This document shows positions 454 to 26,837 of a stretch of 64,000 nucleotides of DNA, in pieces. The notes under the pieces are model-generated. The model did not search any database, was not told the origin of the DNA, and saw nothing but the letters and a program-made list of their open reading frames with translations. The translations under genes were made by a program, and so were the position numbers. This stretch comes from an uncultured virus (IMG/VR IMGVR_UViG_3300013823_000004) (Duplodnaviria; Heunggongvirae; Uroviricota; Caudoviricetes), in the IMG/VR virus record IMGVR_UViG_3300013823_000004. The stretch is one strand, 5' to 3'. The stretch's first letter is position 1; every line of letters starts with the position of its first letter.

Positions 454-3400
454 CTACTCGGGGCCGACAGCCGCCTGCAACCGCGCCGACAGCTTCGGGT
501 TGAGCACGATTCCGCCCTCGGCCTTGGCGCTGTAGCCCGCGCGCGACTTCATCGAGGCCCGGATGCTGCTGGCGGAGATGGCGACTTCCGGGTTGGCGCG
601 ATTGAAGGCCCGGATCTTCTCCATCACCGCCTCGCGGGTGGGCTGGTCCCCGTTGCGCACTGCCAGGGCGAAGGCGTTCATCAGGGTCTCGCGGCGCCGG
701 GTGATGTGCTCCTCGTAGTTCTTCAGCGCGCGGTTGCGCTCGTACCGCTCGGCCACTTCCGCCGGCGCGAAGCCGGCGCCCTGCAGCAGCGCCTGCCACA
801 GGCTCACATCCTCCACGACCGGGTCGCCGCGGAGCGTGTTGACGCCCTGGGTGGCGTACCGGGCCGCCTTCAGCACGTCCTTCATGCCCTTGGGCAGCAT
901 GGTCTCCACGCCGCGCAGCAGGTGGCCCTCGTCGATCTGCTGCTTGCCCACCAGCACGTTCTTGAGCACGCCGCCCATGGGGCCGGCCGCCTGCTCCAGC
1001 AGGTTGTTGAACATGCCCCGGCCGTCCAGCTCCCGGTCGGCGTCGCGGATCCACAGGCTGTCCAGCCCCACCCGGCCGGCGATATTGGCGCCGGTCAGCT
1101 TGTTGGCCGGACCGCGCAGCAGCACCTCCGCGGCGCTCGGCCCCAGCATGTCGCCCAGGAACGCCCGGAACTCGGTCTCCGCGTCCCACGGCTCGTCGTC
1201 GTCGCCGAAGGTGGCCTGCACGGCGTTGAGCACGCCCATGACCACGCCCATCATCGGCAGGCCGAGCGCGCCGGAGAACAGCGTGCTCATGCCCAGCACG
1301 CCGGCCAGGTTGCGCCGGGCGATCTTGCGGACCTCTGGGTCCTGCCCCTTCGTGGCCTGCCAGACCATCCGGCCCAGCGCCCAGCTCATGTTGAGGCTGT
1401 ACTGCCGGAACATCAGCAGCACCTTGGCCGTGCCGCTCTGCATGTACCGCGCGCGGTTGGCGTTGCTGTAGTCGAAGTGGGTGTCGAAGATGGCATCCCG
1501 GGCGAACTTCACCGCCTCGTCGAACGCGGCGCCGCCGTCGCGCGCCAGGCGGAATGCCGCCATGCCGGTGGCCTCGCGGTTCACCACCTCGGTCTTGTGG
1601 AAGCCCCAGCCGATGATCTCCATGGCCTTGGCCCACGCCGGGTTGTAGCCGGCCATGCCGCCCTCAGCGATGCCGGCCAGGTTGTGGGCCTGCGTCTTCT
1701 CGATCGCGCCGGCCGCCTGCAGAGCCTGGTAGGCGCGCTGCTCCTCCGGGTCGGTCAGGGTGCGCTGGATGTTGCCCATGGTCCGCACCGCGTCGCGGCT
1801 GGCCGCGAGCAGGTAGTTCATGGACTTCACGCCCCCGTGCCGAGCCGCCAGGAACGGGTAGCTCACCAGCGCCGTCTGGGTCAGGTTGACCAGCGCCGCG
1901 GCGGGCGTGGCGCCCAGGTAGTAGGTGAACCCGAAGGACGAGACCAGGTTGGTCAGCGCGCTGTCCGTCGGGTTCATGATCCAGTCGTGGCGGCGCTTCA
2001 GCTCCTCGAGGATGGTGTCGCCGGCGGTGATGCGCCGCACGTTGGCGTCCGGTTCCTTGCGTGCAGCATCCTGCTGCTTCGTCAGCAGGTTGAGGACCTC
2101 CTGCAGTTTGTGCGAGTAGCGCAGCCTGGCCAGCTGGTGCGAGCCGTGGTGCATGTTGTAGGCGAATGCCCGCACCGCATCGGGGTCGAAGCCCGGCACC
2201 GATTTGCGGTGGATGCTGTGCTTACGCATCGACAGTTCGGGCATGGCCTCCAGGTACAGCTGATAGATCTCGTCCTGCACCTTGTCCGACACGTGGGAAT
2301 CCCGGAGCTGCTGGATCACGTCGGCCACGAAGGTCCCCGAGGGCGCGTCCTTGGCGCTCACCTTGTCACCTTTCTTGCCGCTCGCGGTGACCGTCCAACC
2401 CTTCGCCCTGAGGCTGTCGACGGCCCGGTCCAGTTCATTCACCGTCTTGAACATCATGAAGGTGTTGGTGTCGTCCTTCTCCGCCGCGACGAAGAAGCTG
2501 CCGAAGCGCTGCAGCGGGAAGTAGACCCCCTGCATGCGGGCGCTCTCGAACTGCTGCCGCAGCATCGTGACCATCTTCTTGCGCTGCTGATCGGACACGC
2601 CGTCGGCGGCCAGATCCTCGATACGCTGCGCCAGTGCTTCCTCGACGGCGTCCGAGCGCTGGCGGTAGGCGTCGCGGAACTGGGTGTAGATGGCCTGCGC
2701 CTCTGGCGACAGCTGGTTCCATCGTTCGACCAGCGGGGCGTACTGGCGGCGCCGGCGCGGCTCGGCCATGCCCATGGCGGTCAGGGCCTTGATCTCGTTG
2801 ATCATGTTCGCCTTGGAGTCGCCGCTGCGCTCCTTCATCTGCTGCTGCTTCACCTTGATGGCGTGATCGATGTTCGCCTTGGTGACCTCGAACTCGCCCT
2901 TTTGCCCTGGCATCTTGAACATCAGCGGCTGGTAGGCCTTCGAGGGGTCAACGCCGTCGATCGTGGCATCGTGCATCAGGTCGAACAGGCGCTCAGCCTC
3001 TGCCTTGTTCTTGCTCGCCCACTTCCGCGCGGGCTCGGCGATGGCTTCCGCTTCCGCCTGCAGCTGGTTCCGGTCGGCCTGCATCTCGGCCAGGAAATGC
3101 GAGTAGTGGTCGATGTTCTTGAAGTAGTCGCCGCCCAGCTCCGTGAGGTGCCGGGTGGCCAGCGCCCCCAGCCACGTGGGCCGCCACTGGTCCTTGAGCT
3201 TCCGCGGCACCATGTCGGCCAGCATCTGCCGCGCGCGCGCCAGCACGCCCTCGCCCTGCAAGCCCTTCTGGATCGTGTCGATGTCCGCCAGCGCATCGGC
3301 CGACGGCAGGCTGAACAGCCGGCGGTCCGGATCGACCGGGCCCTCCCCGGCCTGCTGGACAACGTCGCGCTCAGCGAGTACCTTTGGCGCCGGAGAACCC

Positions 3401-6400
3401 TGACTTGGTGAACCACTCCGGGCATGTAGAGCCGGTCCAGTCGTACCAGGTCGGGGTTTTTCATTTTCCGAAGGGCTGCGGGCGCCAATGATGCTTTCGA
3501 GCAACGGCGATCTGGCAGCCCTTTCGCTTTCATAGGCGAGCTCACCAGACCAGCCGGCGAATGGCTGGGCGCCGTCCTTCCCATATGCGCTGGCAACGCG
3601 GTTCACTTCCAGACGGGCTTCCACCTGCCGCATCCGCAATGCGACGATCACAGGCTTCCCCGCCTGGTCGGTCAGCTCGGTGACCACCACCAGGCTACCG
3701 GGCTCCGTCTTGGAGTTGAACACGGCCAGCGGATCGGCCAGTTCCTCGGGCATCCGCCGCAGGGCCTCCAGCGACACGTTGTGCTTAATGCCGTTGCTGG
3801 CCTTGCGCACCACGTCGCGGGTGATCGTGATCGGCAGGTCCGGCGCGCCCAGCGCGCGCAGCACCGCAGGGGTGCGGCCCAGCCGGATCGGCGGCACCAC
3901 CGTCCGCAAGCTCGGCACGATCTTGTCGAACGCCTCCCGGTAAGCGGCCGCCTCGGCCGGATCCGGCTGCAGGCTGGCCGGTGCGTTCGCGCGCGAGAAC
4001 GCGTAGGCCCGCACCGCCGCCTGGCGCTCGGCCGCCGGCCGGCCGCTGCGCAGGAAGCTGTCGGCCTGGCTCAGCAGGTCGCGGATGTCCGCCTCGCTCC
4101 ACTGCAGCGACGGCATGACGCGGCGCAGGAAGCGGCGCACCGCGGCGACCATCCGGCTGGTGAACGAGTTGCGGATCCCGCGCTCGGCCATCACCGCGAT
4201 GGCCTCCTTCGCGAAGGTCTCCCGGTCGACCGTGCCGTAACGGCGGCTCACGTCCTCGAGCACCGACTGCAGCGCTGCGGAACCACCGCCCTCGCTGGCC
4301 AGCTTGTCGATCGCGCCGACGATCTGGGCCCAGTCCTCGGCTCCAACCACGCTCTCCACACCGAAGTGGCCCAGCGCCTCATGCGCCAGCACCTGGCCGA
4401 ACCGCGCCTCGCTGCTGATGGCGCCGGCGTTGATCCACACCGTGGGGCTGCCGTTGAAGAAGCCCTCCGCGCGGCGGTATGACGGGTCGACCTTCGCTGA
4501 CGCAGGGAAGTCCTCGGCGCTGCGCACCACCACCACCGATGGCGCGTTGTCGCCCCACTTCGCGGTCAGCTCGGCCTTCAGCTGCAGCGCGCGGTCGAAG
4601 TCCATTCCGCCGGCGGCGCCGTCGCCGCTTCGGGAGAACCGGATGTCCGGATTGGTCAGGTCGAAGGCGCCCCAGTTCTCGGACGCCGATTTGATCTGCT
4701 CCGGCTGGAAGGCGATCCACGTCTTCGCCTCGGCGATGTGGATGCCGTCGTGGCCTTGCCGCTGCAGGTACCGCCGGAACGCCTCGGACGCGTCGGGGCT
4801 GTCCAGGGACTGGGCCTCCTCCAGCGACATCTCGTAGGGGTTCTGGATGCGCAGGTAGGCGTCCACCACGCGCTCGTCGGCCGGCACGCCATCGCTCGCG
4901 TTCTCGGCATACCGCTGCGCCAGCGCGCGATCCGTGGTGAAGAAGTGGCCGAGCGGAGCGGTGGCATGGCCGGTAGCCTGGCCAGAACGGTGTTTGCTGA
5001 AGGTCCAGAAGTCCTCGGCGGTGCCGTGGAAGACCACCTCCGGCTTGCCGCCACGGCCGATGACCTGCGAGTCGGCGAACCAGCGGCGGAACTCGGGGCT
5101 GCCGACAGGATCCGGCGGCAGCGAGAACAGCGCGGCCGACGGGGGGGGCTCGGTGCGCGCAGGGCCACCTTTGCCCTGTCGACCGGCTGGCGGCTCCGCT
5201 GACGCGACATTTGCTGGCGCCGGCGCGACGAGGGTGACACGGTTGATGCCGACCCAGCCGGTACCCCGACCATCAGGTTTCGCATCGTCCTGGGCCACCT
5301 TGAAGGCAGTGCCTTGATAGGCCGGAGCGGCGTTGGCCTCGATCGCTACCACGGTCGCTTCATAGGGGGCGGTCGACCGCGGCGTCCCTGCATTGCGATC
5401 CATGTTGACCGACACCCGGTCGCCGATCTTGATGCCGTTCGGCGCCTCTTCCACCAGTCGGGGAGGATCCGACTTCGCAGTCGCGGCCGGCGCCGCCTCC
5501 TTCGTCGCCTTCCGCGGCGCGGCCGCCTTCCGCGACTTGAGCTGGGGCTTGCCCAGCACCGCCGCCAGCTCGCGCGGGCTCGGTAGCGTTGAATGCCAGC
5601 GCGGACGCTCTTCCGGCATCGGATTGCCCGATGCGTCCACGGCCTGCACCTGCACTCGCCACCTCCCATCGGGATCGGCCGGCTCGAACGCGAGCACGCG
5701 GTCCAGGCCGTTGCCGTAGGCCTTCACGATGCGGCCAGGCTGGAAGTAGGCACCGAGCGTCCCGACGTCGCTGCGGTCGTACTCCGGCGACCCGCCGATG
5801 CGGCGCACCCTGGGCGTGTACTGCGGCGCAGCGGGCCGGGCATCGGCCGGCACGGCTCGAGCGTCAGGTGCGGTGCGCGGCGATGGCTGGGCGCCTTCGG
5901 CGGCGGGTGACTGCGCCGTTGCCGGCGGCGCAGCGCGCGGCGCGCGCGTGACGCGGCGGGTGGTCTTCTTCGGGTCGCGCACCCACGCCTTGAACTCGTC
6001 CTGCGTCATCTCCTTGATGCCGCCCAGGCCGGTCCAGCCCTTCTCGTAGTTGGCCAGATAGGTCTTGCGCGCCTCCGCTTCGTCGGCCGTGCCCAGCACG
6101 ACCTTGTGCTCGTCGAAGCTGCCGTCCTTGTTCACCTGGTCGATGACGAACACCGGCAGGCTGGTGTCCTCGGCGCGATCGGTCATGAACACGTCGACGT
6201 GGTCCTTGTCCTTGCCGACGGTGCCCTTGATGTAGCCGTAGTGGTTCTTCAGCGCCGGCCATTCCGGCCGCCGCTTGCTGCCGGCCGGGTTCTCGATGCT
6301 GATGTCGTGCCCGTTCAGGCGCACATGGCCCTTGGGATAGTTGCCTGCCTCCTTCTGGGCGTCGGTCGGCTCGGGCAGGTCGTTGGTCGGGCTCGTCGCG

Positions 6401-8643
6401 GCGGTGTCAGCGGCGGCCTTCACGCCCCCGCCAGCGGGCACTGCAGGGCTATCGGGCGGAACTGCAGCTCCATCCAAGACCTCCACTGACCTGTCCGAAG
6501 ATTCCCTCGTTGCCGGCACCACCGGCGTTGCACCTGCCGGCGCTTCAGCCGCCTGCACACCAGGGGTCGCTCCGGCATTGGCCGCGGGCGCGGCATCAAG
6601 AGCATCCCGGTGCGCGGCTGCCCCTACAGGTTGGTCCCCCATCTCCATCGCGGAAGGCGTGGGCGGTGCCCGCCGGCTTGCCAACGCTTCGATGCTCGCG
6701 CGCCGCGCTGCGGCGTTCTGGCGCACCTGATCGAGCAGGCGCTCGTCGGCGGAAGGTTCAGACGCGGCGGCGGCGGGCAGCAGGCTGCCCTGGGGCTGCT
6801 CTGCCGGCGCCTGCGGCGCGGCGATGCCTCGCTTCCGTTCGGCCTTCACCTTCGAGAGAACCGGACCGACGACGGCGCGCCCCAACCCATACTGGTCACG
6901 CATCGTGTTGAGTGCGACCTCGCTGCTGATGCCGCCGCCGTTCTGCATCTGGTAGTCGAGGTTGGCGTGCAGCAGCTGCTCGATGTCCGCGGTGGTCGGC
7001 GCGCGCAGCGCCTCTCCGGTCTCGGCATCGACCCACGGCGGCGGGATGGTCGGTGCGGCCGGCGGCGACTGTGCCGGGACCTGTTCGGCGGCGGCCGGCT
7101 CCGGGGCGCTGCGGCGCGCGGCGGCTGTGACGTTGGCGACGTCGGCGATGCTGCCAGGCGCGGCATCCGGGAACGGTACTGCGGGCGCTGCAGCGCGCGG
7201 CGCCTGCTGGTTCAGACTGTCGTCGGCGACACGCACGCCCGGCACCGAAGCAGGGTTCGGCGCCGGCGCGGCCGGTTCGCCGGTGACACGCGGGTCCAGG
7301 CCTCGCTGTTCCGGCGTCAGCACCGTGCCACCGGGCGTGACCACGTTGACGCCATAGGCCGGCGTGCCGTCGGAAGGTGGCAGCGCCAGCTGCTCCGGCG
7401 GCAGTTCGGGAGGCTGCGCCGGCTGGTCCTGGCCGGGCTCCGCGGCGGCACCGCGCCGCTCGCTGGCCAGCGCGCCGCCGGTGGCCAAGCCGCCGCCCAG
7501 GACCGCGCCCAGCGCGGCGCCGGTACCGGCAGCCTCGGGCACGCCCTCCCACACTCCCTGATTGGGATCGATCTGCCGCTGGGCCACGTTGCCGGCGAAC
7601 TGAGAGCCACCCTCCTGGATCGTCTCTTCGACCGTCTCCCTGGCCGCGCCTTGCAGCATCGCCATCGGCCTGCGCGCCAGCCTGCCGGTGAACACGTCGG
7701 CCTCGAAAGGTGCGGCGAAGCGCCCGGCGACTGCAGCAATGGGGGCCGTGATGACCTGGGCCTGCAGCGAGGCGCCGCGCGCGATCGTCTCCTTCGCCGT
7801 GACCGGATCCGCGCCGGCGGCGACCATCCGCCGGTACTCGAGGTTCGCATCCCACACCGACTGCGGCTGGGCCATGGCCTGCTGGTAGGTCTGCTGCCCT
7901 GCCTGGCCGGCCTCCATCACCGTGGTCATGCCAGTGGCCGCGGTGGTGGCTGCCTTCTTACCGGCCGCGGCCGCTGCCGTCTCGGCGGCCTCCATGCCGA
8001 GCCCCTTGGTCAGCGCGCCGGCAAGGGCACGCTCGCCCGCCCTCGCCGCGGCCACCCGCGTGCCCATACCCATGGTCGCGATGTTCGGCACCTGCTCGGC
8101 CACGAAGTTGCCGAGCAGCCGCGGGGACGTGAGTACCTTCTTCGCGCTGCCGATGAAGCCCTTGGTCTCCGCCAGTTCCTGCTTCTCCTGCTGCAGGGCC
8201 TCCGACTGCGCGCCGCCGATCGCGTCGCTCACCATCTGCACGCCCTTCGACGTTGCGGCGCTGCCGGCCCCAGGCGCCATGCCGAACTGGCGCTCGGTCA
8301 GCGTGCCGGGCATCTTGGCGGCCAGCGAGCCGGCGCCCGGGACACCAGCCCGGTCGAGCAAGCGCAGGCCCTGCCTGGCGAGGTTCGCGGGCTTGGTCGC
8401 CTCCCGCGTCTCGACCAGGCCTCCCACCAGGTTGGCGGCGCCGGCGGCGACGCCGAGGGCGGTGTCCCCCAGCGCCTGGCCCCAGCTCCGCTCGGGACGC
8501 TTTGCAATCCGTTCACCCGCCGGCGCTGCCGGCGAAGGTTTCGCGGCGAATCGCGACCATGGCCCTGCTCCATTCCCCGCTTCCGACCCAGTCGCGGGGG
8601 TTGCGCCGGGCGAGCTCCCGAAGTTCTTCCACGGCTCGCTCAT
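454..8643 (-). CDS. Giant multidomain (polyvalent) internal virion/ejection protein, PLxRFG-type
   Basis: 2729 aa; pyrophosphatase-like motif (GNYPKGH..HYGYI..DHVDVF..DEHKV), ART-like motif (FRRWF..VVFHGT..GHDGI..PEQIKSA), HEALGH metallopeptidase motif, MuF-C/BECR-like segment (LGRTP..NRVASAYGK), YFPLQRFG. Confidence 0.88.
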   Translation of the reverse strand: MSEPWKNFGSSPGATPATGSEAGNGAGPWSRFAAKPSPAAPAGERIAKRPERSWGQALGDTALGVAAGAANLVGGLVETREATKPANLARQGLRLLDRAGVPGAGSLAAKMPGTLTERQFGMAPGAGSAATSKGVQMVSDAIGGAQSEALQQEKQELAETKGFIGSAKKVLTSPRLLGNFVAEQVPNIATMGMGTRVAAARAGERALAGALTKGLGMEAAETAAAAAGKKAATTAATGMTTVMEAGQAGQQTYQQAMAQPQSVWDANLEYRRMVAAGADPVTAKETIARGASLQAQVITAPIAAVAGRFAAPFEADVFTGRLARRPMAMLQGAARETVEETIQEGGSQFAGNVAQRQIDPNQGVWEGVPEAAGTGAALGAVLGGGLATGGALASERRGAAAEPGQDQPAQPPELPPEQLALPPSDGTPAYGVNVVTPGGTVLTPEQRGLDPRVTGEPAAPAPNPASVPGVRVADDSLNQQAPRAAAPAVPFPDAAPGSIADVANVTAAARRSAPEPAAAEQVPAQSPPAAPTIPPPWVDAETGEALRAPTTADIEQLLHANLDYQMQNGGGISSEVALNTMRDQYGLGRAVVGPVLSKVKAERKRGIAAPQAPAEQPQGSLLPAAAASEPSADERLLDQVRQNAAARRASIEALASRRAPPTPSAMEMGDQPVGAAAHRDALDAAPAANAGATPGVQAAEAPAGATPVVPATRESSDRSVEVLDGAAVPPDSPAVPAGGGVKAAADTAATSPTNDLPEPTDAQKEAGNYPKGHVRLNGHDISIENPAGSKRRPEWPALKNHYGYIKGTVGKDKDHVDVFMTDRAEDTSLPVFVIDQVNKDGSFDEHKVVLGTADEAEARKTYLANYEKGWTGLGGIKEMTQDEFKAWVRDPKKTTRRVTRAPRAAPPATAQSPAAEGAQPSPRTAPDARAVPADARPAAPQYTPRVRRIGGSPEYDRSDVGTLGAYFQPGRIVKAYGNGLDRVLAFEPADPDGRWRVQVQAVDASGNPMPEERPRWHSTLPSPRELAAVLGKPQLKSRKAAAPRKATKEAAPAATAKSDPPRLVEEAPNGIKIGDRVSVNMDRNAGTPRSTAPYEATVVAIEANAAPAYQGTAFKVAQDDAKPDGRGTGWVGINRVTLVAPAPANVASAEPPAGRQGKGGPARTEPPPSAALFSLPPDPVGSPEFRRWFADSQVIGRGGKPEVVFHGTAEDFWTFSKHRSGQATGHATAPLGHFFTTDRALAQRYAENASDGVPADERVVDAYLRIQNPYEMSLEEAQSLDSPDASEAFRRYLQRQGHDGIHIAEAKTWIAFQPEQIKSASENWGAFDLTNPDIRFSRSGDGAAGGMDFDRALQLKAELTAKWGDNAPSVVVVRSAEDFPASAKVDPSYRRAEGFFNGSPTVWINAGAISSEARFGQVLAHEALGHFGVESVVGAEDWAQIVGAIDKLASEGGGSAALQSVLEDVSRRYGTVDRETFAKEAIAVMAERGIRNSFTSRMVAAVRRFLRRVMPSLQWSEADIRDLLSQADSFLRSGRPAAERQAAVRAYAFSRANAPASLQPDPAEAAAYREAFDKIVPSLRTVVPPIRLGRTPAVLRALGAPDLPITITRDVVRKASNGIKHNVSLEALRRMPEELADPLAVFNSKTEPGSLVVVTELTDQAGKPVIVALRMRQVEARLEVNRVASAYGKDGAQPFAGWSGELAYESERAARSPLLESIIGARSPSENEKPRPGTTGPALHARSGSPSQGSPAPKVLAERDVVQQAGEGPVDPDRRLFSLPSADALADIDTIQKGLQGEGVLARARQMLADMVPRKLKDQWRPTWLGALATRHLTELGGDYFKNIDHYSHFLAEMQADRNQLQAEAEAIAEPARKWASKNKAEAERLFDLMHDATIDGVDPSKAYQPLMFKMPGQKGEFEVTKANIDHAIKVKQQQMKERSGDSKANMINEIKALTAMGMAEPRRRRQYAPLVERWNQLSPEAQAIYTQFRDAYRQRSDAVEEALAQRIEDLAADGVSDQQRKKMVTMLRQQFESARMQGVYFPLQRFGSFFVAAEKDDTNTFMMFKTVNELDRAVDSLRAKGWTVTASGKKGDKVSAKDAPSGTFVADVIQQLRDSHVSDKVQDEIYQLYLEAMPELSMRKHSIHRKSVPGFDPDAVRAFAYNMHHGSHQLARLRYSHKLQEVLNLLTKQQDAARKEPDANVRRITAGDTILEELKRRHDWIMNPTDSALTNLVSSFGFTYYLGATPAAALVNLTQTALVSYPFLAARHGGVKSMNYLLAASRDAVRTMGNIQRTLTDPEEQRAYQALQAAGAIEKTQAHNLAGIAEGGMAGYNPAWAKAMEIIGWGFHKTEVVNREATGMAAFRLARDGGAAFDEAVKFARDAIFDTHFDYSNANRARYMQSGTAKVLLMFRQYSLNMSWALGRMVWQATKGQDPEVRKIARRNLAGVLGMSTLFSGALGLPMMGVVMGVLNAVQATFGDDDEPWDAETEFRAFLGDMLGPSAAEVLLRGPANKLTGANIAGRVGLDSLWIRDADRELDGRGMFNNLLEQAAGPMGGVLKNVLVGKQQIDEGHLLRGVETMLPKGMKDVLKAARYATQGVNTLRGDPVVEDVSLWQALLQGAGFAPAEVAERYERNRALKNYEEHITRRRETLMNAFALAVRNGDQPTREAVMEKIRAFNRANPEVAISASSIRASMKSRAGYSAKAEGGIVLNPKLSARLQAAVGPE
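3356..3384 (+). promoter_or_regulatory. Candidate antisense sigma70 promoter inside the giant gene
   Basis: TGGACA (3356-3361), 17-nt spacer, TACCTT (3379-3384). Confidence 0.5.
3391..3467 (+). ncRNA. Candidate antisense structured small RNA
   Basis: 18-bp stem 3392-3409/3445-3462 whose 4 non-Watson-Crick positions are all G.U on this strand; inner hairpin with 7-nt loop AUGUAGA; U-rich end. Confidence 0.45.
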
Positions 8644-12396: not shown

Positions 12397-13872
12397 TTAC
12401 CCGCGCGTCCGGCGGCTCATCGTTGTGGGGTGGAACTGGACGGACTGCAGGTCGAAGTCAGCGCCGTTGACGTTCTCGAGCACGAAATCCCAGTCCACCG
12501 CGCGCATGCCGCGGCCGAGCTTTGCCCTCGTCTCGCGGGACGCGCCGGCTGGCCTGGCCGCGACCTTGTAGACCGCCATGGTCTTCTCGCCGCTGACCTC
12601 ATCGACAAAGATGGCCTTCAACAGCAGCTGCCCACCTGCGGCCGCGCCGATGAACACCTCGGATACGCCCTTGAGCCGCCTGTCGCCGAAATCGGTCATG
12701 CCGAGGCGCAGCTTTGCCCTGATGGGCTCGCCCATGTCGTCCCGGCCGCCCAGCCTGGCAATGCCGCCCGAGTGGGCGCCGTAGTAGCGCTCGCCGATCT
12801 TTGCGAACGAGTTGAACGGGTAGTTGGTGTAACGGCTCAGGCCGCGGCTTTCGGTGTTCATCACCCATGCGATGAACTCGCCGTTGTCGAACGACAACGC
12901 CATCGCGAAGCCGATAGCATCGGCGATCTGCGCCGCAAGTTCAGCCTCATGAGTGGCCTGTGTCCCGAGCGCGAACGTGTCGCGCAGCATCACCGTCAGG
13001 GTGAACTCCGGCGCCGCCTCAGCAGCGAGGACAAGCCGCTCCACGACGCGCGCGAATGCGGCGTAGAGCGCGTCGATGCGGTCGTTCAGGGCCAGCGTAT
13101 CGGCCGCTCCGGCCAACTGCATCCATTCGACCAGGTCGCCGAACACCAGCGCGTCCGCGACCTGCTGCAGCGCTTCGGCGTAGCTACCGGCGTAACCGGC
13201 AAGGATCAGGCGCGAAACCGCCCGGGCAAGCATGCGGTAGTCGCCGGTGGCGAGGGTGCCGAAGCTGATGCCGTCGGCTGCCAGCATGTGCACGACGAAC
13301 GACGTGGCGTCGGCAAAGCTGAACTGCTCAACCGCCCGCAGCGCCCCGTCGTACCGTGAGCGCCGGCGGGTTCCAAGTTTCAGCGGCGTGCGTATGACCG
13401 CGGTGTAGAGCCGTGAGGGCTGGCTGCCTAGCGAGAACCGCTCGTCGAGCGTGCCGAACCACTGGCCGCCGTAGCCAGATACTTCGGGGGCTTGTGGAAT
13501 CAGCAGTGCATACGCAGTGCCGCCGAGTCCCTGGGCGCCGAACGTGCGCAGCCGCAGCCACGTCCGGCCGCTGATAGTCCCAGGGCGGCCAGCAAAGCCA
13601 CGGTGGCTCAGCCGCACCACCGCTCGACCATCCACAACTTCATGGTAGCTGGTGGTTCCCGATGCGGTAATGCTAAACGTGCACTGACCCACCAGCGGCA
13701 GCTGTGGCGTTGGAATCACCAGCGAAAGGCTCGTTCTACTGCGCGCGCGCACCCGCAGCTTGGTGCGTCCATGCAGACCTGCCTGGCTGTAGCCGTAGGC
13801 GCCAATGCGCAGGCTGCATGCACCTGAAACGTGCGTCACGACGGCCGAAAGCGCCTCGAACTTGATGCTCAT
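12397..13872 (-). CDS. Tail-region structural protein
   Basis: 491 aa in coupled late operon. Confidence 0.7.
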   Translation of the reverse strand: MSIKFEALSAVVTHVSGACSLRIGAYGYSQAGLHGRTKLRVRARSRTSLSLVIPTPQLPLVGQCTFSITASGTTSYHEVVDGRAVVRLSHRGFAGRPGTISGRTWLRLRTFGAQGLGGTAYALLIPQAPEVSGYGGQWFGTLDERFSLGSQPSRLYTAVIRTPLKLGTRRRSRYDGALRAVEQFSFADATSFVVHMLAADGISFGTLATGDYRMLARAVSRLILAGYAGSYAEALQQVADALVFGDLVEWMQLAGAADTLALNDRIDALYAAFARVVERLVLAAEAAPEFTLTVMLRDTFALGTQATHEAELAAQIADAIGFAMALSFDNGEFIAWVMNTESRGLSRYTNYPFNSFAKIGERYYGAHSGGIARLGGRDDMGEPIRAKLRLGMTDFGDRRLKGVSEVFIGAAAGGQLLLKAIFVDEVSGEKTMAVYKVAARPAGASRETRAKLGRGMRAVDWDFVLENVNGADFDLQSVQFHPTTMSRRTRG

Positions 13873-14588
13873 TCACTTCCCCCTACGGTATCGCCGGACG
13901 CGTAGAGGGCACTGCCGACGTGTATCTCGCCGACCGAATGAATGCGGCTCGTATAGACGAGCGCACCCGCATGCAGGTACGAAACCTCGCCACCGGCGCG
14001 CTGGATCTTGAACTCATCGCCCGGGCGGTAGCTGGCCTCGATCGTCCTGGCCTCACCAGACTCAACTACCTGGAAGCGCCCTGCGGTGAAGTGGAACGCA
14101 TGGGTCAGGCGCTCTATGTCAGCCACGTCATCAAGGTCCGCCGTGAACCCGCACACAGCACCCACGACGCGGTCCATGTTGAACGTGCAAACGCAGTCTC
14201 CGGCATGGGAAACCACGCTGTTGGCGCCGGCATTCCAACCGATCAGCGAAGTGATCTCGGTGCGTCCCGCGCGAGCCGGAACAGCTGGGACATGCGGCTG
14301 TGCAGGGTACGTGGTGCATACGGTTGGCCCGGGCGGCCCCGTCGGCTTCCAGATCGACACGCAGATGTAGATCTCATTCGTCATCCCGCCGTGCTCGTCG
14401 TACACCGGCGTCCACTTCGCACCGGGCGGCAACACGATTCGGGTGGTGTTCGTGACGCGAATGCAGACGACCTCCCAGTGACCCGGGGCCGGCGTTGGCT
14501 GGCAGACGGTGAAAGCGGGGCGATAAGGAACTTCCGCGCGCGCGGGCACAGGCGGGATGTACGAGCGCTGGAAGACCTTGCTGAGCAT
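13869..14588 (-). CDS. Tail-region protein
   Basis: 239 aa, overlapping start/stop with neighbours. Confidence 0.65.
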   Translation of the reverse strand: MLSKVFQRSYIPPVPARAEVPYRPAFTVCQPTPAPGHWEVVCIRVTNTTRIVLPPGAKWTPVYDEHGGMTNEIYICVSIWKPTGPPGPTVCTTYPAQPHVPAVPARAGRTEITSLIGWNAGANSVVSHAGDCVCTFNMDRVVGAVCGFTADLDDVADIERLTHAFHFTAGRFQVVESGEARTIEASYRPGDEFKIQRAGGEVSYLHAGALVYTSRIHSVGEIHVGSALYASGDTVGGSE

Positions 14589-18199: not shown

Positions 18200-19492
18200 T
18201 CAGCGATCAACGTGGATGACATGCGCCACCGCCCTGTCCGTTATCGCCAGTCCCTGCGCGCGCGGCGCGCGCAGCGTCGTGATTACCTGCTGGCGGCCGG
18301 CGCGCGCGGCGAACAGCGATGCGCCGCGGTCGGCGTTGTCGATCGCGGTCCGGCCGGCGTTGAGCGCGGCCACGCGACCGTCAGGCAGCCCGATGACGTA
18401 GGTGCCCTTCCGCGACAGCCACACCGTGTAGTCGCCGTCATCGTCCATGCCGATCGACTGCCCGGGCACCTGCACGCTGCTGCCCGGCACCGCGCCCGCG
18501 TTGTGCACGTCGATGGGCTGCAGCGCAGACGGATCCGCGCCGGCAAGGAAGTACGTGCGCTTGCCGGCCGCCAGGAACAGGCCGGCGCCCTCGCCGGTTG
18601 CCGGCTCAAGCAGGTCGATGCGGGCATCGAAGCGGATCAGGCTGTGGGCCAGGTCCGTCATGCCGTAGCGCAGCGGCGGCGACCACCGAAGGGTGCGGCC
18701 ATCCGCAACCCAGTGCCGGCCGTTGAAGATGCGGGTGAACTGGCCGGGCGGCATCGGGTCGAGCAGGTGCGTCGCCAGCTTGACGCCCTCTGCCTCGCCG
18801 GAGACCAGGTAGCTGGGCGTGCCGGCGGGCAGGCGCGCCGCAAGCCGCAGCACCTGGTCGTTGGGCGCGCTCAGGTAGACGTTGACCTGCCCAGCCGAGG
18901 GCAGGTCTCGCAGCAAGATGCCCTGCTGGTCTCCCACGTGGATCTGGGTCGCGCAGTCGGCGCCGGACTCGCGGCCCAGCGCGTCGGTCACCGTCACCGC
19001 GAGCTGATACAGGCCCGGTGGCAGGCCGTAGCCATCCACCAGTTCAGCGCCCGGCGCCCCGGGTGTTGCAGGGGCACCCCATGGATGAACTGCGCGGTCC
19101 AGCACGGTCAGCATTCCGCTTGCCTGAGCGTTGCTGAAATAGACCCGGTCGCCGACCGCTGCGTAGCTCACCGGCAGATCGCCGGGCTGAGCGCCCAGTG
19201 GCCCGGTGGTTTCGTCCCCCTCCAGCACATGGAGAATGCCGGCGTCGACGAACAGCCCGAAATCGAGCTCGGGATGGCCCCAGAGCGAATGCACGAGGCT
19301 GCCGCTGTAGCACCCGACGTACCCCTCGCGCCGGCTCACGAAACCGGCGGCTGACAGGTCGACGTTGTCGGCCTCGCGCAGAGCAACGGGCCGTCCGTTC
19401 TCGTCCTGCGGCATGCGCCCCTCAGGGGCAATGTTGTTGATACCCAGTGGCCAGGGGCCAGCGCCCTTCAGCTCCGCATCCGAAACGGCCAT
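18200..19492 (-). CDS. Probable tail nozzle/stabilisation protein
   Basis: 430 aa directly after adaptor gene; GINN..LREADNVD N-terminal motif. Confidence 0.6.
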   Translation of the reverse strand: MAVSDAELKGAGPWPLGINNIAPEGRMPQDENGRPVALREADNVDLSAAGFVSRREGYVGCYSGSLVHSLWGHPELDFGLFVDAGILHVLEGDETTGPLGAQPGDLPVSYAAVGDRVYFSNAQASGMLTVLDRAVHPWGAPATPGAPGAELVDGYGLPPGLYQLAVTVTDALGRESGADCATQIHVGDQQGILLRDLPSAGQVNVYLSAPNDQVLRLAARLPAGTPSYLVSGEAEGVKLATHLLDPMPPGQFTRIFNGRHWVADGRTLRWSPPLRYGMTDLAHSLIRFDARIDLLEPATGEGAGLFLAAGKRTYFLAGADPSALQPIDVHNAGAVPGSSVQVPGQSIGMDDDGDYTVWLSRKGTYVIGLPDGRVAALNAGRTAIDNADRGASLFAARAGRQQVITTLRAPRAQGLAITDRAVAHVIHVDR

Positions 19493-19493
19493 G

Positions 19494-20174
19494 TCAGAAC
19501 CAGACCGGCGACGTGCCGGAAACGGGGTCGGTAGCCAGTTGCTGCAGCGCGCGGGCGGTCGGCCGGTCACCGAAGAAGTCGATGAACAGCGTGAGCTGCC
19601 GGTCCGCATCCTGGGGGCTGTATCGCTCGGAGTCCTTTTTGTTGAAGGCGCGGTGGCAGGCCCAGTGCACCAGCTTCCGGTGATGGATGGCGTCGATGAC
19701 CGGCTCGTCGTCGTCGCTCTCCATGACTTCGGCGGCCGTGGGGACGCGCCACACCGTCATCAGCAGCGCCCCCGCCTCCGCCGGCACAGGACTGAGGCTG
19801 ACCTCCCGGGTCTGCCGGTCGCGTATCACGTAGCTCGGTCGCCCCTGCTCTGTGCGCCACTGCTCACTGCACCCGTCCAGGACCGCCGAGCTCGTGCGGC
19901 AAAGCGGCTCGCCCGGGCGATCCTCCAGCGCAGCGCGACGGATGACGTAGACCGACGGATGCAGGGCATAGTCGGCCTGGCCGGCCTGCAGAGCGATGCG
20001 GCAGACGTCTGGATTGCGGCTTTCAACCAGCAGCCGCGCGCGGATGCAGGCCTCCTCGACGGCTTCGTTGAGGTAGCGGATCAGCAGCTCGTCGCCCCAC
20101 AGATAGGGGGCGACGGCGTCGTCCAGCTCCTCGCGGCAGTCGTCGATCAGCTGTCGCAGGGACTGGGCTTCCAC
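19494..20174 (-). CDS. Head-tail adaptor protein
   Basis: 226 aa; LW.DELLIRYLNEA and H..LVHWA..RAF motifs typical of podoviral adaptors. Confidence 0.7.
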   Translation of the reverse strand: MEAQSLRQLIDDCREELDDAVAPYLWGDELLIRYLNEAVEEACIRARLLVESRNPDVCRIALQAGQADYALHPSVYVIRRAALEDRPGEPLCRTSSAVLDGCSEQWRTEQGRPSYVIRDRQTREVSLSPVPAEAGALLMTVWRVPTAAEVMESDDDEPVIDAIHHRKLVHWACHRAFNKKDSERYSPQDADRQLTLFIDFFGDRPTARALQQLATDPVSGTSPVWF

Positions 20175-25916: not shown

Positions 25917-26383
25917 CAGTTCACCGCCTGCCCGTTGATCTTGACCGTGAGCCCCATTGCGCCCATCTCCCGCAGCCATTCCTCGCGGCTCTTCTCCGCC
26001 GGCGGCCGGAGGTTCTTCACGTCGTCGCAGAACTCCAGGATCGCGTCGTGGATGCGGTGCCGGTAGGGCGCCGCGTCGATGCCATACAGCGCAACCGAGG
26101 CATTCGCCAGGCGACTGGTCATGTCCTCGATGCGGTGCATGCCACCGCGGTCGCGGTCCTCCGGCCGGAACACCCAGAAGTCGCGGAACGGCACCAGGTA
26201 TGCAGGGCATCCGGTCGCGGCCTTGCCGGTGATCGCGTCGCTGGATTCGACACGGCGGTTCTCGTTGCGGATGTACAGCGCCGCATCGTCGTCGCCGTCA
26301 CGGCTGATGTGCGTCAGGTAGAGCGTCAGGTCGCCCTTCTTCCCACACCAGACGAAGCCCTCGGGCGCGAGCTGCAGGCTCAT
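25916..26383 (-). CDS. Hypothetical protein
   Basis: 155 aa, coupled. Confidence 0.7.
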   Translation of the reverse strand: MSLQLAPEGFVWCGKKGDLTLYLTHISRDGDDDAALYIRNENRRVESSDAITGKAATGCPAYLVPFRDFWVFRPEDRDRGGMHRIEDMTSRLANASVALYGIDAAPYRHRIHDAILEFCDDVKNLRPPAEKSREEWLREMGAMGLTVKINGQAVN

Positions 26384-26559: not shown

Positions 26560-26837
26560 CAGTTCAGCTCCCGCGCCAGCTCGCCATTGATCCGCTGGGT
26601 GATCAGTGGGTGGCTGATGCGGACCTCCTGCGCGATGCGCTCCCGCACGGTGCGGGCGGCCATCTCCGTGAACTCGTGGCAGCCGCGATAGTCGACCATG
26701 GCATTGCCCTCCCTGTCCTGGAGCATGAAGACCAGGCTCACCAGCTGGCCTTCCTCGGCAGCCGCAAGCAGCATGGCCAGGAGCTCCTCGAGCGCCGCCT
26801 TTGTGGGGTGATTTCGTTCACGTGCTGAGACGCTCAT
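26559..26837 (-). CDS. Small hypothetical protein
   Basis: 92 aa, ATGA overlap with terL stop. Confidence 0.6.
   Translation of the reverse strand: MSVSARERNHPTKAALEELLAMLLAAAEEGQLVSLVFMLQDREGNAMVDYRGCHEFTEMAARTVRERIAQEVRISHPLITQRINGELARELN

What the first reader, a model, noticed from the sequence alone, without database searches (positions are those of the whole stretch)
3356..3600. Hidden antisense RNA with an anticodon-like loop next to the RNase-like domain of the giant virion protein
Seen: on the non-coding strand, TGGACA-N17-TACCTT (3356-3384) is followed 7 nt later by an unbroken 18-bp stem (3392-3409/3445-3462). Its four non-WC positions are all G.U on this strand and would be A.C mismatches on the mRNA. 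The stem ends in UUUUUCAUUUU and encloses CCGG(G)C-AUGUAGA-GCCGG, a 7-nt loop with U-GUA-purine like a tRNA-Tyr anticodon loop. 3421-3480 is 35/60 GC versus ~70% nearby, and the protein across it looks like unstructured linker. It lies just C-terminal of the MuF-C/BECR-like domain (~3570-3900). Known: BECR-fold colicin E5 cuts GUN/QUN anticodon loops. Inference: a nuclease domain plus an embedded cognate RNA (decoy, antitoxin or cofactor) moving as one cassette inside polyvalent proteins and expressed in the lysogen.
Basis: partly seen in the sequence, partly recalled or inferred. Interest (0 to 1): 0.88.

Follow-up and report, generated by a model that had tools for sequence, protein, structure and literature searches.

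The report
Hidden antisense RNA gene in phage
A small RNA gene with its own promoter and terminator lies on the opposite strand of a giant phage virion-protein gene, and the same hidden gene accompanies one nuclease-like protein domain in many distantly related phages, including Shiga-toxin phages where the RNA has already been detected but never studied.

Summary
Window + strand 3356-3472 holds TGGACA-N17-TACCTT, an 18-bp stem with 4 G.U pairs around a small hairpin with a 7-nt loop, and a U-run.

It is not chance. The same unit lies antisense to the tail of the MuF_C/PBECR module in 25 of 25 distinct homologues, window included. The unit is TTGACx-N16/17-TAnnnT, a hairpin starting 5-9 nt later, then a U-run. 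The stem sequences differ between lineages. 23 of 25 modelled pairs show changes on both sides, and covariation is 0.39 against 0.20 in shuffles.

The window reads the loop and 3' arm in a different frame from its relatives, yet keeps the hairpin.

The E. coli Sp5/933W member is the catalogued but uncharacterised candidate sRNA EcOnc36. Published dRNA-seq places a primary TSS 7 nt after the predicted -10. Hfq-CRAC and RNase E-CLASH recover the RNA and its hybrids with mRNAs.

Verdict: a real, conserved antisense sRNA gene co-inherited with the nuclease-like domain. tRNA-Tyr mimicry is not supported, because GUA occurs in the window only. A decoy or antitoxin role is untested. There is no Rfam family.

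The parts
3356..3361 (+). -35-like hexamer TGGACA of the antisense promoter
   Evidence: Read. This is the best sigma70-like site in the 420-nt antisense region. It aligns with TTGAC(A/G/T) in homologues; T and G of TTG are invariant in 20 aligned sequences.
3379..3384 (+). -10-like hexamer TACCTT, 17 nt after the -35
   Evidence: TA...T is kept in all 25 homologues. The TA comes from a GTA, ATA or CTA codon in 23 of 25. The Sp5 counterpart TATTTT lies 7 nt before a published primary TSS.
3389..3392 (+). Predicted transcription start (inferred, not measured in this organism)
   Evidence: Inferred by homology with Sp5, where the dRNA-seq TSS is the 7th base after the -10 and 1 nt before the hairpin. 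In homologues the hairpin starts 5-9 nt after the -10.
3392..3462 (+). Body of the RNA: an outer 18-19 bp stem (3392-3409 with 3445-3462, 4 G.U) enclosing the apical hairpin CCGGGC-AUGUAGA-GCCGG (3418-3435)
   Evidence: The covariance model R1 hit is 3342-3471 (+), 89.4 bits, E 2e-19, and is the only hit in the 64-kb window. Covariation across 24 sequences is shown.
3457..3467 (+). U-run UUUUUCAUUUU overlapping and following the 3' arm; intrinsic-terminator-like on the + strand only
   Evidence: In 22 of 24 correctly delimited homologues, 5-11 of the 14 nt spanning the end of the 3' arm are T. The simple terminator scan does not call it, because the composite loop is too long for its rule.
3417..3466 (-). 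Stretch of the giant ORF read in a different frame from the relatives (ENEKPRPGTTGPALHAR versus KNPELVRLSRLYKPG), although the DNA is nearly the same
   Evidence: Translations and DNA are shown side by side. The one-base length differences at both ends are visible.
3550..3795 (-). Coding sequence of the MuF_C (PBECR, predicted BECR-fold RNase) domain, residues 1617-1698
   Evidence: Pfam PF18819, E 1.1e-21, 77.3 bits against a cut-off of 27.6. The His and Ser of K-H-[DN] and S-x-Y-G are invariant. RelE/BrnT/HigB-type chains appear among weak fold matches.
454..8643 (-). Giant polyvalent virion protein gene (2729 aa: InPase, ART-PolyVal, MuF_C, LPD39, PLxRFG-type C-terminal part); last gene of the late operon
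   Evidence: Upstream on the same strand lie terminase, portal, major head, head closure and virion structural proteins.

Best explanation
Window 3356-3472 (+) is a small RNA gene hidden antisense in the giant polyvalent virion-protein gene.

**Shown from sequence and comparison**
- A sigma70-type promoter (TGGACA-N17-TACCTT) is followed, about 7 nt after the -10, by an RNA of about 75-82 nt.
- That RNA is essentially one long imperfect hairpin with a small apical stem-loop. It ends in a U-run that looks like an intrinsic terminator.
- The gene belongs to a conserved RNA family not found in Rfam or in the literature searched. Its promoter, hairpin and terminator overlap the C-terminal tail of the MuF_C/PBECR module, and it is inherited with that module in phages of very different hosts and G+C content.

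**Shown experimentally by others, for the E. coli Sp5 member only**
- The RNA, catalogued as EcOnc36, starts at the predicted base in an uninduced lysogen culture.
- It is bound by Hfq and RNase E, and it is found ligated to mRNAs.

**Inferred**
- In the window's prophage the RNA is made constitutively by host RNA polymerase and acts by base-pairing.
- I take its primary, family-wide target to be the perfectly complementary hairpin in the late mRNA of the polyvalent gene, just after the RNase-like domain. Pairing there would damp leaky or mistimed expression of that protein in the manner of RNA-OUT, OOP or 3'-overlapping type I antitoxin RNAs.
- Lineage-specific trans targets would be reached through the pyrimidine-rich loop side, as the E. 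coli hybrids suggest.

**Rough odds**
- Real transcribed sRNA gene: 0.85.
- Cis-antisense control as the main role: 0.4.
- Mainly trans-acting: 0.35.
For: **1. Conservation at one place**
- The best sigma70-like site in the 420-nt antisense region is the homologous one in 25 of 25 distinct homologues, window included.
- The spacer is 17 in 22, plus one tie, and 16 in the rest. TTGACA is exact in 10.
- The score is at least 8 of 12 in 24 of 25. In three control regions or strands it reaches that in 6-7 of 25.

**2. Selection on nucleotides, not residues**
- The codon supplying the C of GTCAA (antisense TTGAC) is GTC, CGC, GCC or ATC in 24 of 25. Its third base is fixed while the amino acid varies.
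- The codon supplying the TA of the -10 is GTA, ATA or CTA in 23 of 25.
- The window reads 17 codons across the hairpin in a different frame from its relatives, on nearly the same DNA.

**3. Structure**
- Hairpins start 5-9 nt after the -10.
- The outer stems have unrelated sequences in different lineages. Examples are the window GGAGAACCCUGACUUGGU, 933W AGCCGCGAUAAG and Acinetobacter AGGUCAGCA.
- On the model-fitted alignment of 24 sequences, 71.9% of cells pair against 56.9% in shuffles. 23 of 25 pairs have changes on both sides. There are 101 such cells against 48.0 +/- 5.6, reached by 0 of 500 shuffles. Covariation is 0.391 against 0.195 shuffled and 0.07-0.23 when slid.

**4. Strand**
- The promoter and the U-run exist on the antisense strand only.
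- There are 67 G.U cells on the antisense strand against 33 A.C cells.
- The antisense z-score beats the sense z-score in 18 of 25.

**5. Linkage to MuF_C**
- Model R1 hits all 36 MuF_C-bearing sources and none of the 20 loci that share only the downstream LPD39 domain. It hits the 64-kb window once.

**6. Experimental data for the Sp5 homologue**
- Sy et al. 2020, supplementary TSS table, row 914: an antisense TSS in ECs1242 with enrichment 24.07. Its -50..+1 sequence is exactly the predicted TTGCGA-N17-TATTTT plus 7 nt. The culture was uninduced.
- Tree et al. 2014, Table S2: EcOnc36, - strand, Hfq-CRAC peak in 5 datasets.
- Waters et al. 2017, EV Table 7: EcOnc36 halves of RNase E-CLASH hybrids lie between 1301472 (the TSS) and 1301402. 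The ECs3452 5'UTR is supported by 7 reads in replicates.

**7. The conserved peptide tail**
- It is predicted disordered, with pLDDT 36-52 from residue about 116, while the domain core scores 70-87.
Against: **Expression in this organism**
- No measurement exists for the window's own organism. RNA-library contigs from two studies cover 3416-3751 and stop inside the hairpin. Their strand is unknown, they are not the predicted 80-nt RNA, and DNA carry-over cannot be excluded.

**Weakness of the window's own signals**
- The window's promoter is weak: 8 of 12, with a -10 of TACCTT. The consensus scans call neither a promoter nor a terminator.

**Strand evidence is not one-sided**
- The hairpin also folds significantly on the sense strand in many homologues. 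The sense z-score is better in 7 of 25.

**Limits of the statistics**
- The z-scores are inflated because start and length were optimised for the real sequences only.
- The alignment used for pair counts was fitted to the structure, and 28% of cells do not pair because stem registers differ between lineages.
- The sequences are related, so the shuffle control overstates significance.

**Limits of the published data**
- Antisense TSSs are common in the published table, which lists another one in the same gene.
- The EcOnc36 Hfq peak (1301433-1301515) overlaps only the 5' half of the predicted RNA.
- Most CLASH rows for EcOnc36 are single reads.
- The cis-silencing role is inference only.

**An alternative cause of conservation**
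- The peptide GLQLP is nearly invariant and could itself be selected.
Confidence: 0.75

Rival explanations
1. The RNA is the cognate partner (decoy substrate, antitoxin or cofactor) of the adjacent BECR-fold RNase domain. Its apical loop mimics a tRNA-Tyr anticodon loop, and nuclease plus RNA form a toxin-antidote cassette.
For: - The RNA gene co-occurs strictly with MuF_C in different architectures, including small single-domain proteins.
- MuF_C is a PBECR domain (passages). The predicted catalytic His and Ser are kept, and the fold resembles RelE-type RNases weakly.
- The 7-nt apical loop size is conserved.
- Tandem second copies of the unit occur in some lineages.
Against: - U-GUA-R is present only in the window. 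The nearest relatives have UUAUAGA, most members have AAUUGNA, and others have unrelated apical parts.
- ARAGORN finds nothing tRNA-like.
- Co-occurrence is partly forced, because the RNA gene physically overlaps the domain's own coding tail.
- The only experimental data show Hfq and RNase E association and hybrids with mRNAs, not with the phage protein.
Confidence: 0.08
2. The functional structure is the hairpin in the sense mRNA, acting as a translational pause after the domain, an RNase III or processing site, or a 3'-end protector of a decay intermediate. On this reading the antisense promoter and TSS are by-products.
For: - The sense-strand fold is also more stable than shuffles in most homologues, and it beats the antisense z-score in 7 of 25.
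- An A-rich run precedes the sense hairpin everywhere.
- RNA-library contigs from two studies end at 3416-3429, inside the hairpin, with no loose ends.
Against: - It does not explain an exactly spaced TTGACx-N17-TAnnnT kept by fixed wobble bases across changing amino acids, nor the U-run placed only after the antisense hairpin.
- G.U pairs favour the antisense strand, 67 to 33.
- In L074 and L076 the antisense fold reaches -35 to -41 kcal/mol against -15 to -20 for the sense strand.
- The measured TSS and the CLASH fragments are on the antisense strand.
- Both strands could be functional as a kissing pair, which is the best explanation and not this rival.
Confidence: 0.1
3. There is no RNA function. 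The nucleotide conservation reflects selection on the peptide tail (GLQLP, K[IV]L, D[ILV]V[KN]) or recent recombination at a cassette boundary. The hairpin and promoter are coincidences of that coding sequence, or a DNA-level recombination site.
For: - The peptide motifs are strongly conserved.
- A mosaic boundary lies just beside the unit. L057 and L058 are 93-100% identical in DNA from about codon 365 on, but about 58-80% identical in MuF_C.
- The simple scans do not call a promoter or terminator in the window.
Against: - The outer stems encode unrelated peptides in different lineages yet always pair.
- The window has lost the peptide through a frame change but kept the hairpin.
- Wobble bases are fixed while residues vary.
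- The tail is predicted disordered.
- A primary TSS and the RNA itself are on record for the Sp5 member.
Confidence: 0.05

Closest known systems
EcOnc36, a candidate sRNA of the Stx2 prophage Sp5 of E. coli O157:H7 Sakai (Tree et al. 2014 Table S2; listed as 'Hfq-CRAC only, target unknown' in the review PMC7873438)
   Same: - It occupies the homologous position, antisense to the tail of the MuF_C module of the giant late gene ECs1242.
- It has the same promoter geometry, the same start at the base of one long hairpin, an apical 4-bp stem with a 7-nt loop, and a U-run.
- It scores 83.6 bits with the model that scores the window at 89.4.
   Different: - The outer stem sequences are unrelated.
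- The loop is AAUUGGA, against AUGUAGA in the window.
- The downstream protein domain is LPD38-type, not LPD39.
- The host is an enterobacterium, whereas the window comes from a Thermomonas-like Xanthomonadaceae genome.
- Only EcOnc36 has experimental support.
IS10 RNA-OUT and plasmid countertranscripts (CopA, ctRNAs). This comparison is recalled, not tested, apart from a sub-threshold Rfam ctRNA_p42d match (18.4 bits against a gathering score of 50) on the Acinetobacter member.
   Same: - A constitutive promoter lies inside a coding region and points against it.
- The RNA of about 70 nt is almost wholly one stable stem-loop ending in a terminator.
- Its target is the complementary hairpin of the sense mRNA.
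   Different: - Those RNAs overlap the 5' end or the translation start of their target. This one lies 5.2 kb into an 8.2-kb ORF, at a domain boundary.
- There is no sequence or family relationship, and no Rfam hit at gathering score.
3'-overlapping type I antitoxin RNAs (RatA/TxpA and SR4/BsrG type) and phage lambda OOP RNA (recalled)
   Same: A short antisense RNA overlaps the 3' part of the coding region of a potentially harmful product and is made when the sense gene should stay silent. OOP is likewise a 77-nt hairpin-terminated phage antisense RNA.
   Different: - The 'toxin' here would be one domain of a 2729-aa virion protein, not a small membrane peptide.
- No toxicity, RNase III cleavage or silencing has been shown.
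Type III toxin-antitoxin RNAs (ToxI type) (recalled)
   Same: The RNA is genetically tied to an endoRNase-fold protein, and some family members carry two tandem units.
   Different: - ToxI is a sense-strand array of short repeats upstream of the toxin gene and is processed by the toxin.
- Here the unit is single and antisense, with its own promoter and terminator inside the ORF.
- No evidence of processing by MuF_C exists.

Membership tests
EcOnc36-like antisense sRNA family (defined in this report; model R1) | Sigma70-type promoter TTGACx-N16/17-TAnnnT on the strand opposite the MuF_C coding tail, at the homologous position | tested here: met
   The window has TGGACA-17-TACCTT, the best site in its region. 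The same position is found in 25 of 25 homologues.
EcOnc36-like antisense sRNA family (defined in this report; model R1) | One long hairpin starting 5-9 nt after the -10, with an apical small stem-loop, followed by a U-run | tested here: met
   In the window the hairpin starts 7 nt after the -10, is 71 nt long at -35.7 kcal/mol, and is followed by UUUUUCAUUUU. The R1 score is 89.4 bits, E 2e-19. The window was one of the 20 seed sequences of R1, so that score is partly by construction.
EcOnc36-like antisense sRNA family (defined in this report; model R1) | Base pairs supported by compensatory change across members | tested here: met
   23 of 25 pairs have changes on both sides. Covariation is 0.391 against 0.195 shuffled, reached by 0 of 500 shuffles, and 0.07-0.23 when slid. 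The alignment was fitted to the structure and the sequences are related.
EcOnc36-like antisense sRNA family (defined in this report; model R1) | Transcribed as a discrete short RNA | not testable with these tools
   This is shown only for the Sp5 member, from published tables. For the window there are only unstranded RNA-library contigs over 3416-3751.
Intrinsic (Rho-independent) terminator | G+C-rich stem with a short loop, directly followed by a U-tract | tested here: inconclusive
   The stem end GGUCGGGG and the following UUUUUCAUUUU fit. The consensus scan finds 0 sites in 454-8643, because the enclosed part (35 nt) exceeds its loop limit of 3-8. CLASH fragments of the Sp5 member end at ..GGCUUAAUU.
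tRNA anticodon stem-loop mimic (tRNA-Tyr, GUA) | 7-nt loop with U33, GUA at 34-36 and a purine at 37, conserved among relatives | tested here: not met
   The window loop AUGUAGA fits. L058 and L059 have UUAUAGA, L057 has AAUUGCA, and most others have AAUUGNA. ARAGORN finds 0 genes in 3250-3600.
Type I toxin-antitoxin system | A small toxic (usually membrane) peptide whose mRNA is bound by a cis-encoded antisense RNA | tested here: not met
   The antisense RNA is present, but the overlapped gene encodes a 2729-aa multidomain virion protein. It may work like such a system but is not a member.
Type III toxin-antitoxin system (ToxIN-like) | Tandem array of short direct RNA repeats on the sense strand upstream of an endoRNase gene | tested here: not met
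   There is a single unit in the window, with one R1 hit in 64 kb. It is antisense and internal to the ORF. At most two units occur in some relatives.
Pfam PF18819 MuF_C (PBECR clade of BECR-fold RNases), for the overlapped protein domain | Profile match above the curated cut-off | tested here: met
   77.3 bits against a cut-off of 27.6, residues 1617-1698.
Pfam PF18819 MuF_C (PBECR clade of BECR-fold RNases), for the overlapped protein domain | BECR fold (N-terminal helix plus a 4-5-stranded sheet) with His in the helix region and Ser/Thr in a late strand | tested here: inconclusive
   The model was built on the relative P0006 from an alignment of 12 sequences. Its core has pLDDT 70-87 and a helix-then-strands order. 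Foldseek finds no match at E <= 0.001, but BrnT (probability 1.00, TM 0.66 on the target), RelE, HigB2 and MqsR are among the top rows. His22 and Ser86 are invariant. The fold assignment itself comes from Iyer et al. 2017.
Any Rfam 15 family | Match at or near the gathering score | tested here: not met
   There are 0 matches at E <= 10 for window 3200-3700. Five homologous loci give only sub-threshold chance-level rows.

The most novel reading that the evidence does not exclude
The RNA and the PBECR RNase-like domain are a functional pair. MuF_C with its embedded antisense RNA would be a self-contained, mobile two-component cassette, with the RNA acting as antidote, guide or substrate of the injected nuclease, shuffled as a unit among polyvalent virion proteins. 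As a corollary, the 'conserved C-terminal tail' of this protein family (GLQLP...K[IV]L...D[ILV]V[KN]) would largely be the imprint of the RNA gene's apical loop, -10 and -35 on the protein, not a protein-level motif.
Probability: 0.15. Interest if true: 0.88.

Novelty: new variant of a known kind. Interest (0 to 1): 0.72.

Why it matters
**Why the family matters**
- Phage-encoded antisense and trans-acting sRNAs are known. I found no family described that is embedded in, and co-inherited with, a protein-domain module across phages of enterobacteria, Acinetobacter, Xanthomonadaceae and AT-rich uncultured hosts.
- The basis for "not described" is as follows: there is no Rfam match. 'EcOnc36' occurs in the main text of one review only, as 'target unknown'. 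The 20 top-ranked listings for MuF, polyvalent protein and antisense held one relevant paper, Iyer et al. 2017, in which the word 'antisense' does not occur.

**What it offers**
1. A name-worthy RNA family with one member already measurable in public data from Shiga-toxin prophages. The 251-nt region is present in 425 of 5426 complete E. coli genomes.
2. A clean case in which wobble positions and even a 'conserved protein motif' are shaped by an overlapping promoter and RNA structure. This matters for interpreting domain alignments and dN/dS.
3. A testable link between an injected RNase-like domain and a prophage-expressed RNA.

Tried and rejected
**Searches that gave little or nothing**
- The window's own assembly is not held. 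The nearest genome, G001, carries an identical copy, which is useless for covariation. The hairpin is single-copy there, so it is not a dispersed repeat.
- blastn of 3000-4200 against phages and plasmids found no match.
- The search for related loci with the single protein returned one 99% relative and one spurious Phenylobacterium hit brought in by the ENEKPRPG pattern.
- The DNA pattern AACCCTGANNTGGTGAAC in viral contigs gave 18 loci. Only the 3 already known were homologous, and 15 were chance.
- The metagenome-contig scan returned one locus holding only the LPD39 part.
- A search for PF18819 in 400 genomes of the class found 2 genomes with the domain, so no census was possible.
- Earlier findings of this scan: nothing by place, words or sequence.

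**Analyses that misled or failed**
- A first protein alignment suggested a 17-aa insertion unique to the window. This was an artefact of the frame change and was rejected once the DNA was compared.
- A programmed -1 frameshift on the A-run before the sense hairpin was considered. It was rejected because the A-run is in different frames and contexts in different members and lies inside the stem, not 5-9 nt before it (reading).
- RNAalifold on the MAFFT alignment found only the apical 4 pairs, because the stems are misaligned. A structure was therefore given by hand and the sequences were realigned to the model.
- Automatic hairpin delimitation overran in 4 sequences and cut L067 wrongly. L067, L053 and L054 were left out of the model seed for length. 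L062, L063, L072 and L075-L081 were left out as near-duplicates of seeds.

**Known sRNAs ruled out**
- The known Stx-phage sRNAs AsxR, AgvB, StxS, HnrS and 24B_1 lie elsewhere.

**RNA-library contigs**
- X17-X20 were laid on 2900-4100. There is no cover of 3269-3415 in any run, and no contig matching the 80-nt RNA. This says nothing about absence.

Full report
**1. What is in the window**

The + strand carries TGGACA (3356-3361), a 17-nt spacer and TACCTT (3379-3384). From 3392, an 18-bp stem (3392-3409 with 3445-3462) has four G.U pairs that would be A.C on the other strand. The stem encloses CCGGGC-AUGUAGA-GCCGG (3418-3435) and runs into UUUUUCAUUUU (3457-3467).

- Folded as RNA, 3385-3475 gives -37.7 kcal/mol on the + strand (z -2.2; 7 of 200 shuffles as good). 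The - strand gives -28.4 (z -0.6; 48 of 200).
- G+C is 0.583 in 3420-3479, but the dip is shallow and not unique.
- The consensus scans call no promoter and no terminator anywhere in 454-8643. This site scores 8 of 12, and its enclosed part is longer than the scan's loop limit.

On its own, the window's hairpin is suggestive and no more.

**2. Context**

The hairpin lies inside a 2729-aa ORF (454-8643, - strand) with Pfam InPase, ART-PolyVal, MuF_C (residues 1617-1698, nt about 3550-3795) and LPD39 (1808-2043).

- This ORF is the last gene of a late operon with terminase, portal, major head, head-closure and virion structural proteins.
- The closest public copy is a Thermomonas MAG contig, 99% identical.
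- The hairpin codes residues about 1728-1751, between MuF_C and LPD39.

**3. The nearest relatives keep the DNA, not the peptide**

Three IMG/VR phages (L005/L058, L006/L059, L007/L057) have 55-62% protein identity over this part. They carry the same hairpin on the antisense strand with the same upstream hexamers (TGGACA or TTGACT, N17, TACCKT) and the same GGGGUUUUUC end.

- Their peptide there is KNP[ED]LVRL..L...P.SGSP.QGS. The window reads nearly the same DNA as ENEKPRPGTTGPALHARSGSPSQGS.
- One base more at one end and one base less at the other put 17 codons in a different frame.
- A first protein alignment had shown this as an 'insertion'. That was an artefact.
- Third-base identity at identical residues rises from about 2/12-6/12 in the MuF_C core to 7/11-8/10 across the hairpin for L057 against L058.

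**4. The wider family**

tblastn found the module in 187 Stx-converting, E. coli and Shigella phage records at about 35% identity (933W; Sakai Sp5 gene ECs1242). It also found it in Acinetobacter phage-plasmids. A profile scan of IMG/VR found 22 further loci, some below 30% identity and with G+C from 0.35 to 0.65. Genome searches added G062, G146 and G760.

In every one, the antisense strand at the same place shows the following:
- a nested hairpin whose outer stem has a lineage-specific sequence;
- often an apical GGGC-AAUUGNA-GCCC, which is the codons of the nearly invariant peptide GLQLP;
- then a U-run.

**5. Numbers**

*Promoter.*
- In 25 of 25 distinct homologues (window included), the best TAnnnT-type sigma70 match in the 420-nt antisense region is the homologous site.
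- The spacer is 17 in 22, plus one tie, and 16 otherwise. TTGACA is exact in 10.
- The score is at least 8 of 12 in 24 of 25, with mean 9.0. The sense strand and the upstream 420 nt on either strand reach that score in 6-7 of 25, with means 5.5-6.0.

*Wobble bases.*
- The base that gives the C of GTCAA is the third base of GTC, CGC, GCC or ATC in 24 of 25.
- The TA of the -10 comes from GTA, ATA or CTA in 23 of 25.
- The wobble base is therefore fixed while the residue changes.

*Hairpin.*
- Hairpins start 5-9 nt after the -10.
- Antisense z-scores run from -1.9 to -6.8 and beat the sense strand in 18 of 25. They are inflated, because start and length were optimised on the real sequences only.

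*Covariance model.*
- Model R1 was built from 20 sequences with a hand-given structure.
- It hits the 64-kb window once (3342-3471, 89.4 bits) and all 36 MuF_C-bearing sources.
- It hits none of 20 loci that share only the LPD39 part.
- Seeds match by construction. The non-seed, non-duplicate hits are L067 (37 bits), a second site in L052 (34 bits) and L053-L056 (25-28 bits).

*Pair counts on the 24-sequence model alignment.*
- 71.9% of cells pair, against 56.9% shuffled and 29-56% slid.
- 23 of 25 pairs have changes on both sides.
- There are 101 such cells against 48.0 +/- 5.6, reached by 0 of 500 shuffles.
- Covariation is 0.391, against 0.195 shuffled and 0.07-0.23 slid.
- G.U cells number 67 against 33 A.C cells.
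- The alignment is fitted to the structure and the sequences are related, so these figures are support and not probabilities.

**6. Experimental record for one member (from papers)**

- **Transcription start.** In the supplementary TSS table of Sy et al. 2020 (PMC7547250, file 2, row 914), ECs1242 has an antisense TSS at 1301472 (-) with enrichment factor 24.07. Its listed -50..+1 sequence is exactly the predicted TTGCGA-N17-TATTTT followed by ATCCGCA. The start is 7 nt after the -10 and 1 nt before the hairpin.
- **Growth condition.** The culture was an uninduced stx-negative Sakai lysogen (methods passage).
- **Hfq binding.** Table S2 of Tree et al. 2014 (PMC4104026, supplementary file 1) lists EcOnc36 at 1301433-1301515 (-), in Sp5, seen in 5 Hfq-CRAC datasets, with no northern entry. 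It overlaps the 5' half of the predicted RNA.
- **Status in the literature.** A review lists it as 'Hfq-CRAC, target unknown' (PMC7873438, passage).
- **RNase E hybrids.** EV Table 7 of Waters et al. 2017 (PMC5286369, supplementary file 9) holds the name 92 times, twice per row. In the 15 rows I saw, the EcOnc36 halves lie between 1301472 and 1301402. Two begin at the TSS base. Several use ..UUGGAGCCCUCUGUGCAGAAGG paired to purine-rich mRNA stretches. The ECs3452 5'UTR has 7 reads in replicates and ECs3104 has 3 reads. Most other rows are single reads.
- **The host gene.** ECs1242 (ORF80) is needed for infectious Sp5 particles (PMC5155283, passages).

**7. The window's own organism**

Twenty runs hold the stretch. 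Four RNA-library runs, kept as contigs, were laid on it.

- Contigs of a roughly 96%-identical relative cover 3416-3674, 3429-3751 and 3428-3594 in runs from two studies. They end inside the hairpin with no loose ends.
- A fourth run covers 2955-3243 only.
- The strand is unknown and DNA carry-over is possible. An 80-nt RNA would not be expected in such libraries. This is a weak hint that some RNA end lies at the hairpin, and nothing more.

**8. The protein side**

- An AlphaFold2 model of the module of a relative (12-sequence alignment) has a confident core to residue about 115, with pLDDT 70-87. The tail that carries GLQLP, K[IV]L and D[ILV]V has pLDDT 36-52.
- Foldseek gives no match at E <= 0.001. 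BrnT, RelE, HigB2, MqsR and a CdiA toxin are among the best rows.
- Iyer et al. 2017 assign MuF-C to their PBECR clade of BECR RNases, with His and Ser/Thr as the usual active pair (passages). K-H-[DN] and S-x-Y-G are invariant here, including in the window.

**9. Reading**

The simplest account of an exactly spaced promoter, a covarying hairpin that begins at +1/+2, a U-run on one strand only, a measured TSS and a recovered RNA is a small antisense RNA gene.

- *Shown:* the anatomy, its conservation, its linkage to MuF_C, and for Sp5 the transcript itself.
- *Inferred:* that the window's copy is expressed, and what it does.

I commit to a base-pairing regulator. Its one target common to all members is the complementary hairpin in the late mRNA just after the RNase-like domain. 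Lineage-specific trans targets are suggested by the E. coli hybrids.

It does not survive in its specific form. The GUA loop is private to the window. Nothing here tests binding to the nuclease.

**10. Compared with what is known**

The unit works like RNA-OUT, OOP or countertranscript RNAs, and possibly like 3'-overlapping type I antitoxins. It meets the defining features of neither type I nor type III TA systems. It matches no Rfam family.

One member was catalogued in 2014 without follow-up. I did not find the family, its structure, or its tie to MuF_C in print.
- The search for 'EcOnc36' returned one review.
- The search for MuF, polyvalent protein and antisense held one relevant paper among its 20 listed results, Iyer et al. 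2017, with no occurrence of 'antisense'.
- The search for ECs1242 and other gene names found no RNA paper among its 20 listed results.

Supplements of bioRxiv papers could not be seen and might hold more.

**11. Limits**

- All homologues come from three search routes seeded on the MuF_C core, not on the tail. They are few (25 distinct) and partly related.
- No strand-specific data exist for the window.
- Phage Mu's own MuF was not examined.
- The function is unproven.

Noticed in passing
L060:930-1117 (two units); proteins P0004, P0005, P0009, P0096, P0102; L070 (second ..RGLQSPK..); L052:2021-2159: Several relatives carry a second, tandem copy of the whole unit, seen as a repeat of the peptide ..GLQLP..SGSP.QG... 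L060 has two hairpins back to back, and R1 gives a second hit in L052 at 34 bits. Recurrent duplication of the unit is unexplained.
   Followed up: partly
G760 contig C16 (loci L052-L056): One small genome holds five MuF_C matches in about 12 kb on one contig: four in open frames of 346-351 aa and one in a frame of 1147 aa. Model R1 matches all five loci, and in L053 and L054 (the two folded) a TTGACA-N17-TAC.AT promoter is followed by a much larger (127-nt) branched hairpin and a U-run.
   Followed up: partly
L057 vs L058, from about codon 365 of the loci (..RRLFSLP..) onward: DNA identity jumps from about 0.6-0.8 in MuF_C and the RNA unit to 0.93-1.00 in the LPD39 part. This is a recombination boundary about 25 codons beyond the RNA's -35, as expected if MuF_C plus the RNA is exchanged as a block.
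   Followed up: partly
window 3416-3751: RNA-library contigs of a roughly 96%-identical relative, from two studies, all stop at 3416-3429, inside the hairpin, without loose ends. The strand is unknown.
   Followed up: partly
Sakai Sp5, NC_002695.1 coordinate 1300538 (-), inside ECs1242: The published TSS table lists a second antisense TSS in the same gene (enrichment 9.39), about 930 nt downstream in antisense direction. It is not conserved as far as I looked.
   Followed up: no
Apical 3' side of the RNA in many members (e.g. L049 ..GAGCCCUCUGUG.., L065 ..GAGCCUUCUGG.., L068 ..GAGCUCCCCGG.., L069 ..UAGCCCCCUGG..): A pyrimidine-rich stretch follows the 7-nt loop in many members. In the E. coli CLASH rows it is the part ligated to purine-rich, Shine-Dalgarno-like mRNA sites. 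It may be a seed. The window's version (GCCGGUCCAG) is less pyrimidine-rich.
   Followed up: no
L050:903-984 (-): There is a sub-threshold Rfam match of the Acinetobacter unit to ctRNA_p42d (18.4 bits, gathering score 50, E 5). It probably reflects generic hairpin-terminator likeness.
   Followed up: no
window 8643-42000, - strand: The late operon is laid out as in Sp5-type Stx phages: terminase large subunit 26834-28387, portal 23745-26210, major head 21304-22413, head closure 18200-19609, and virion proteins 12397-14588. A replication-initiation O-like gene lies at 40957-41889. The virus record G002 shares 33% of the window's sampled words but has no match to 3000-4200.
   Followed up: partly
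L003 (Phenylobacterium haematophilum contig), about 3001-3183: The only other genome-contig hit was brought in by the peptide pattern ENEKPRPG and lies after a stop codon in an unrelated region. It is treated as spurious.
   Followed up: partly
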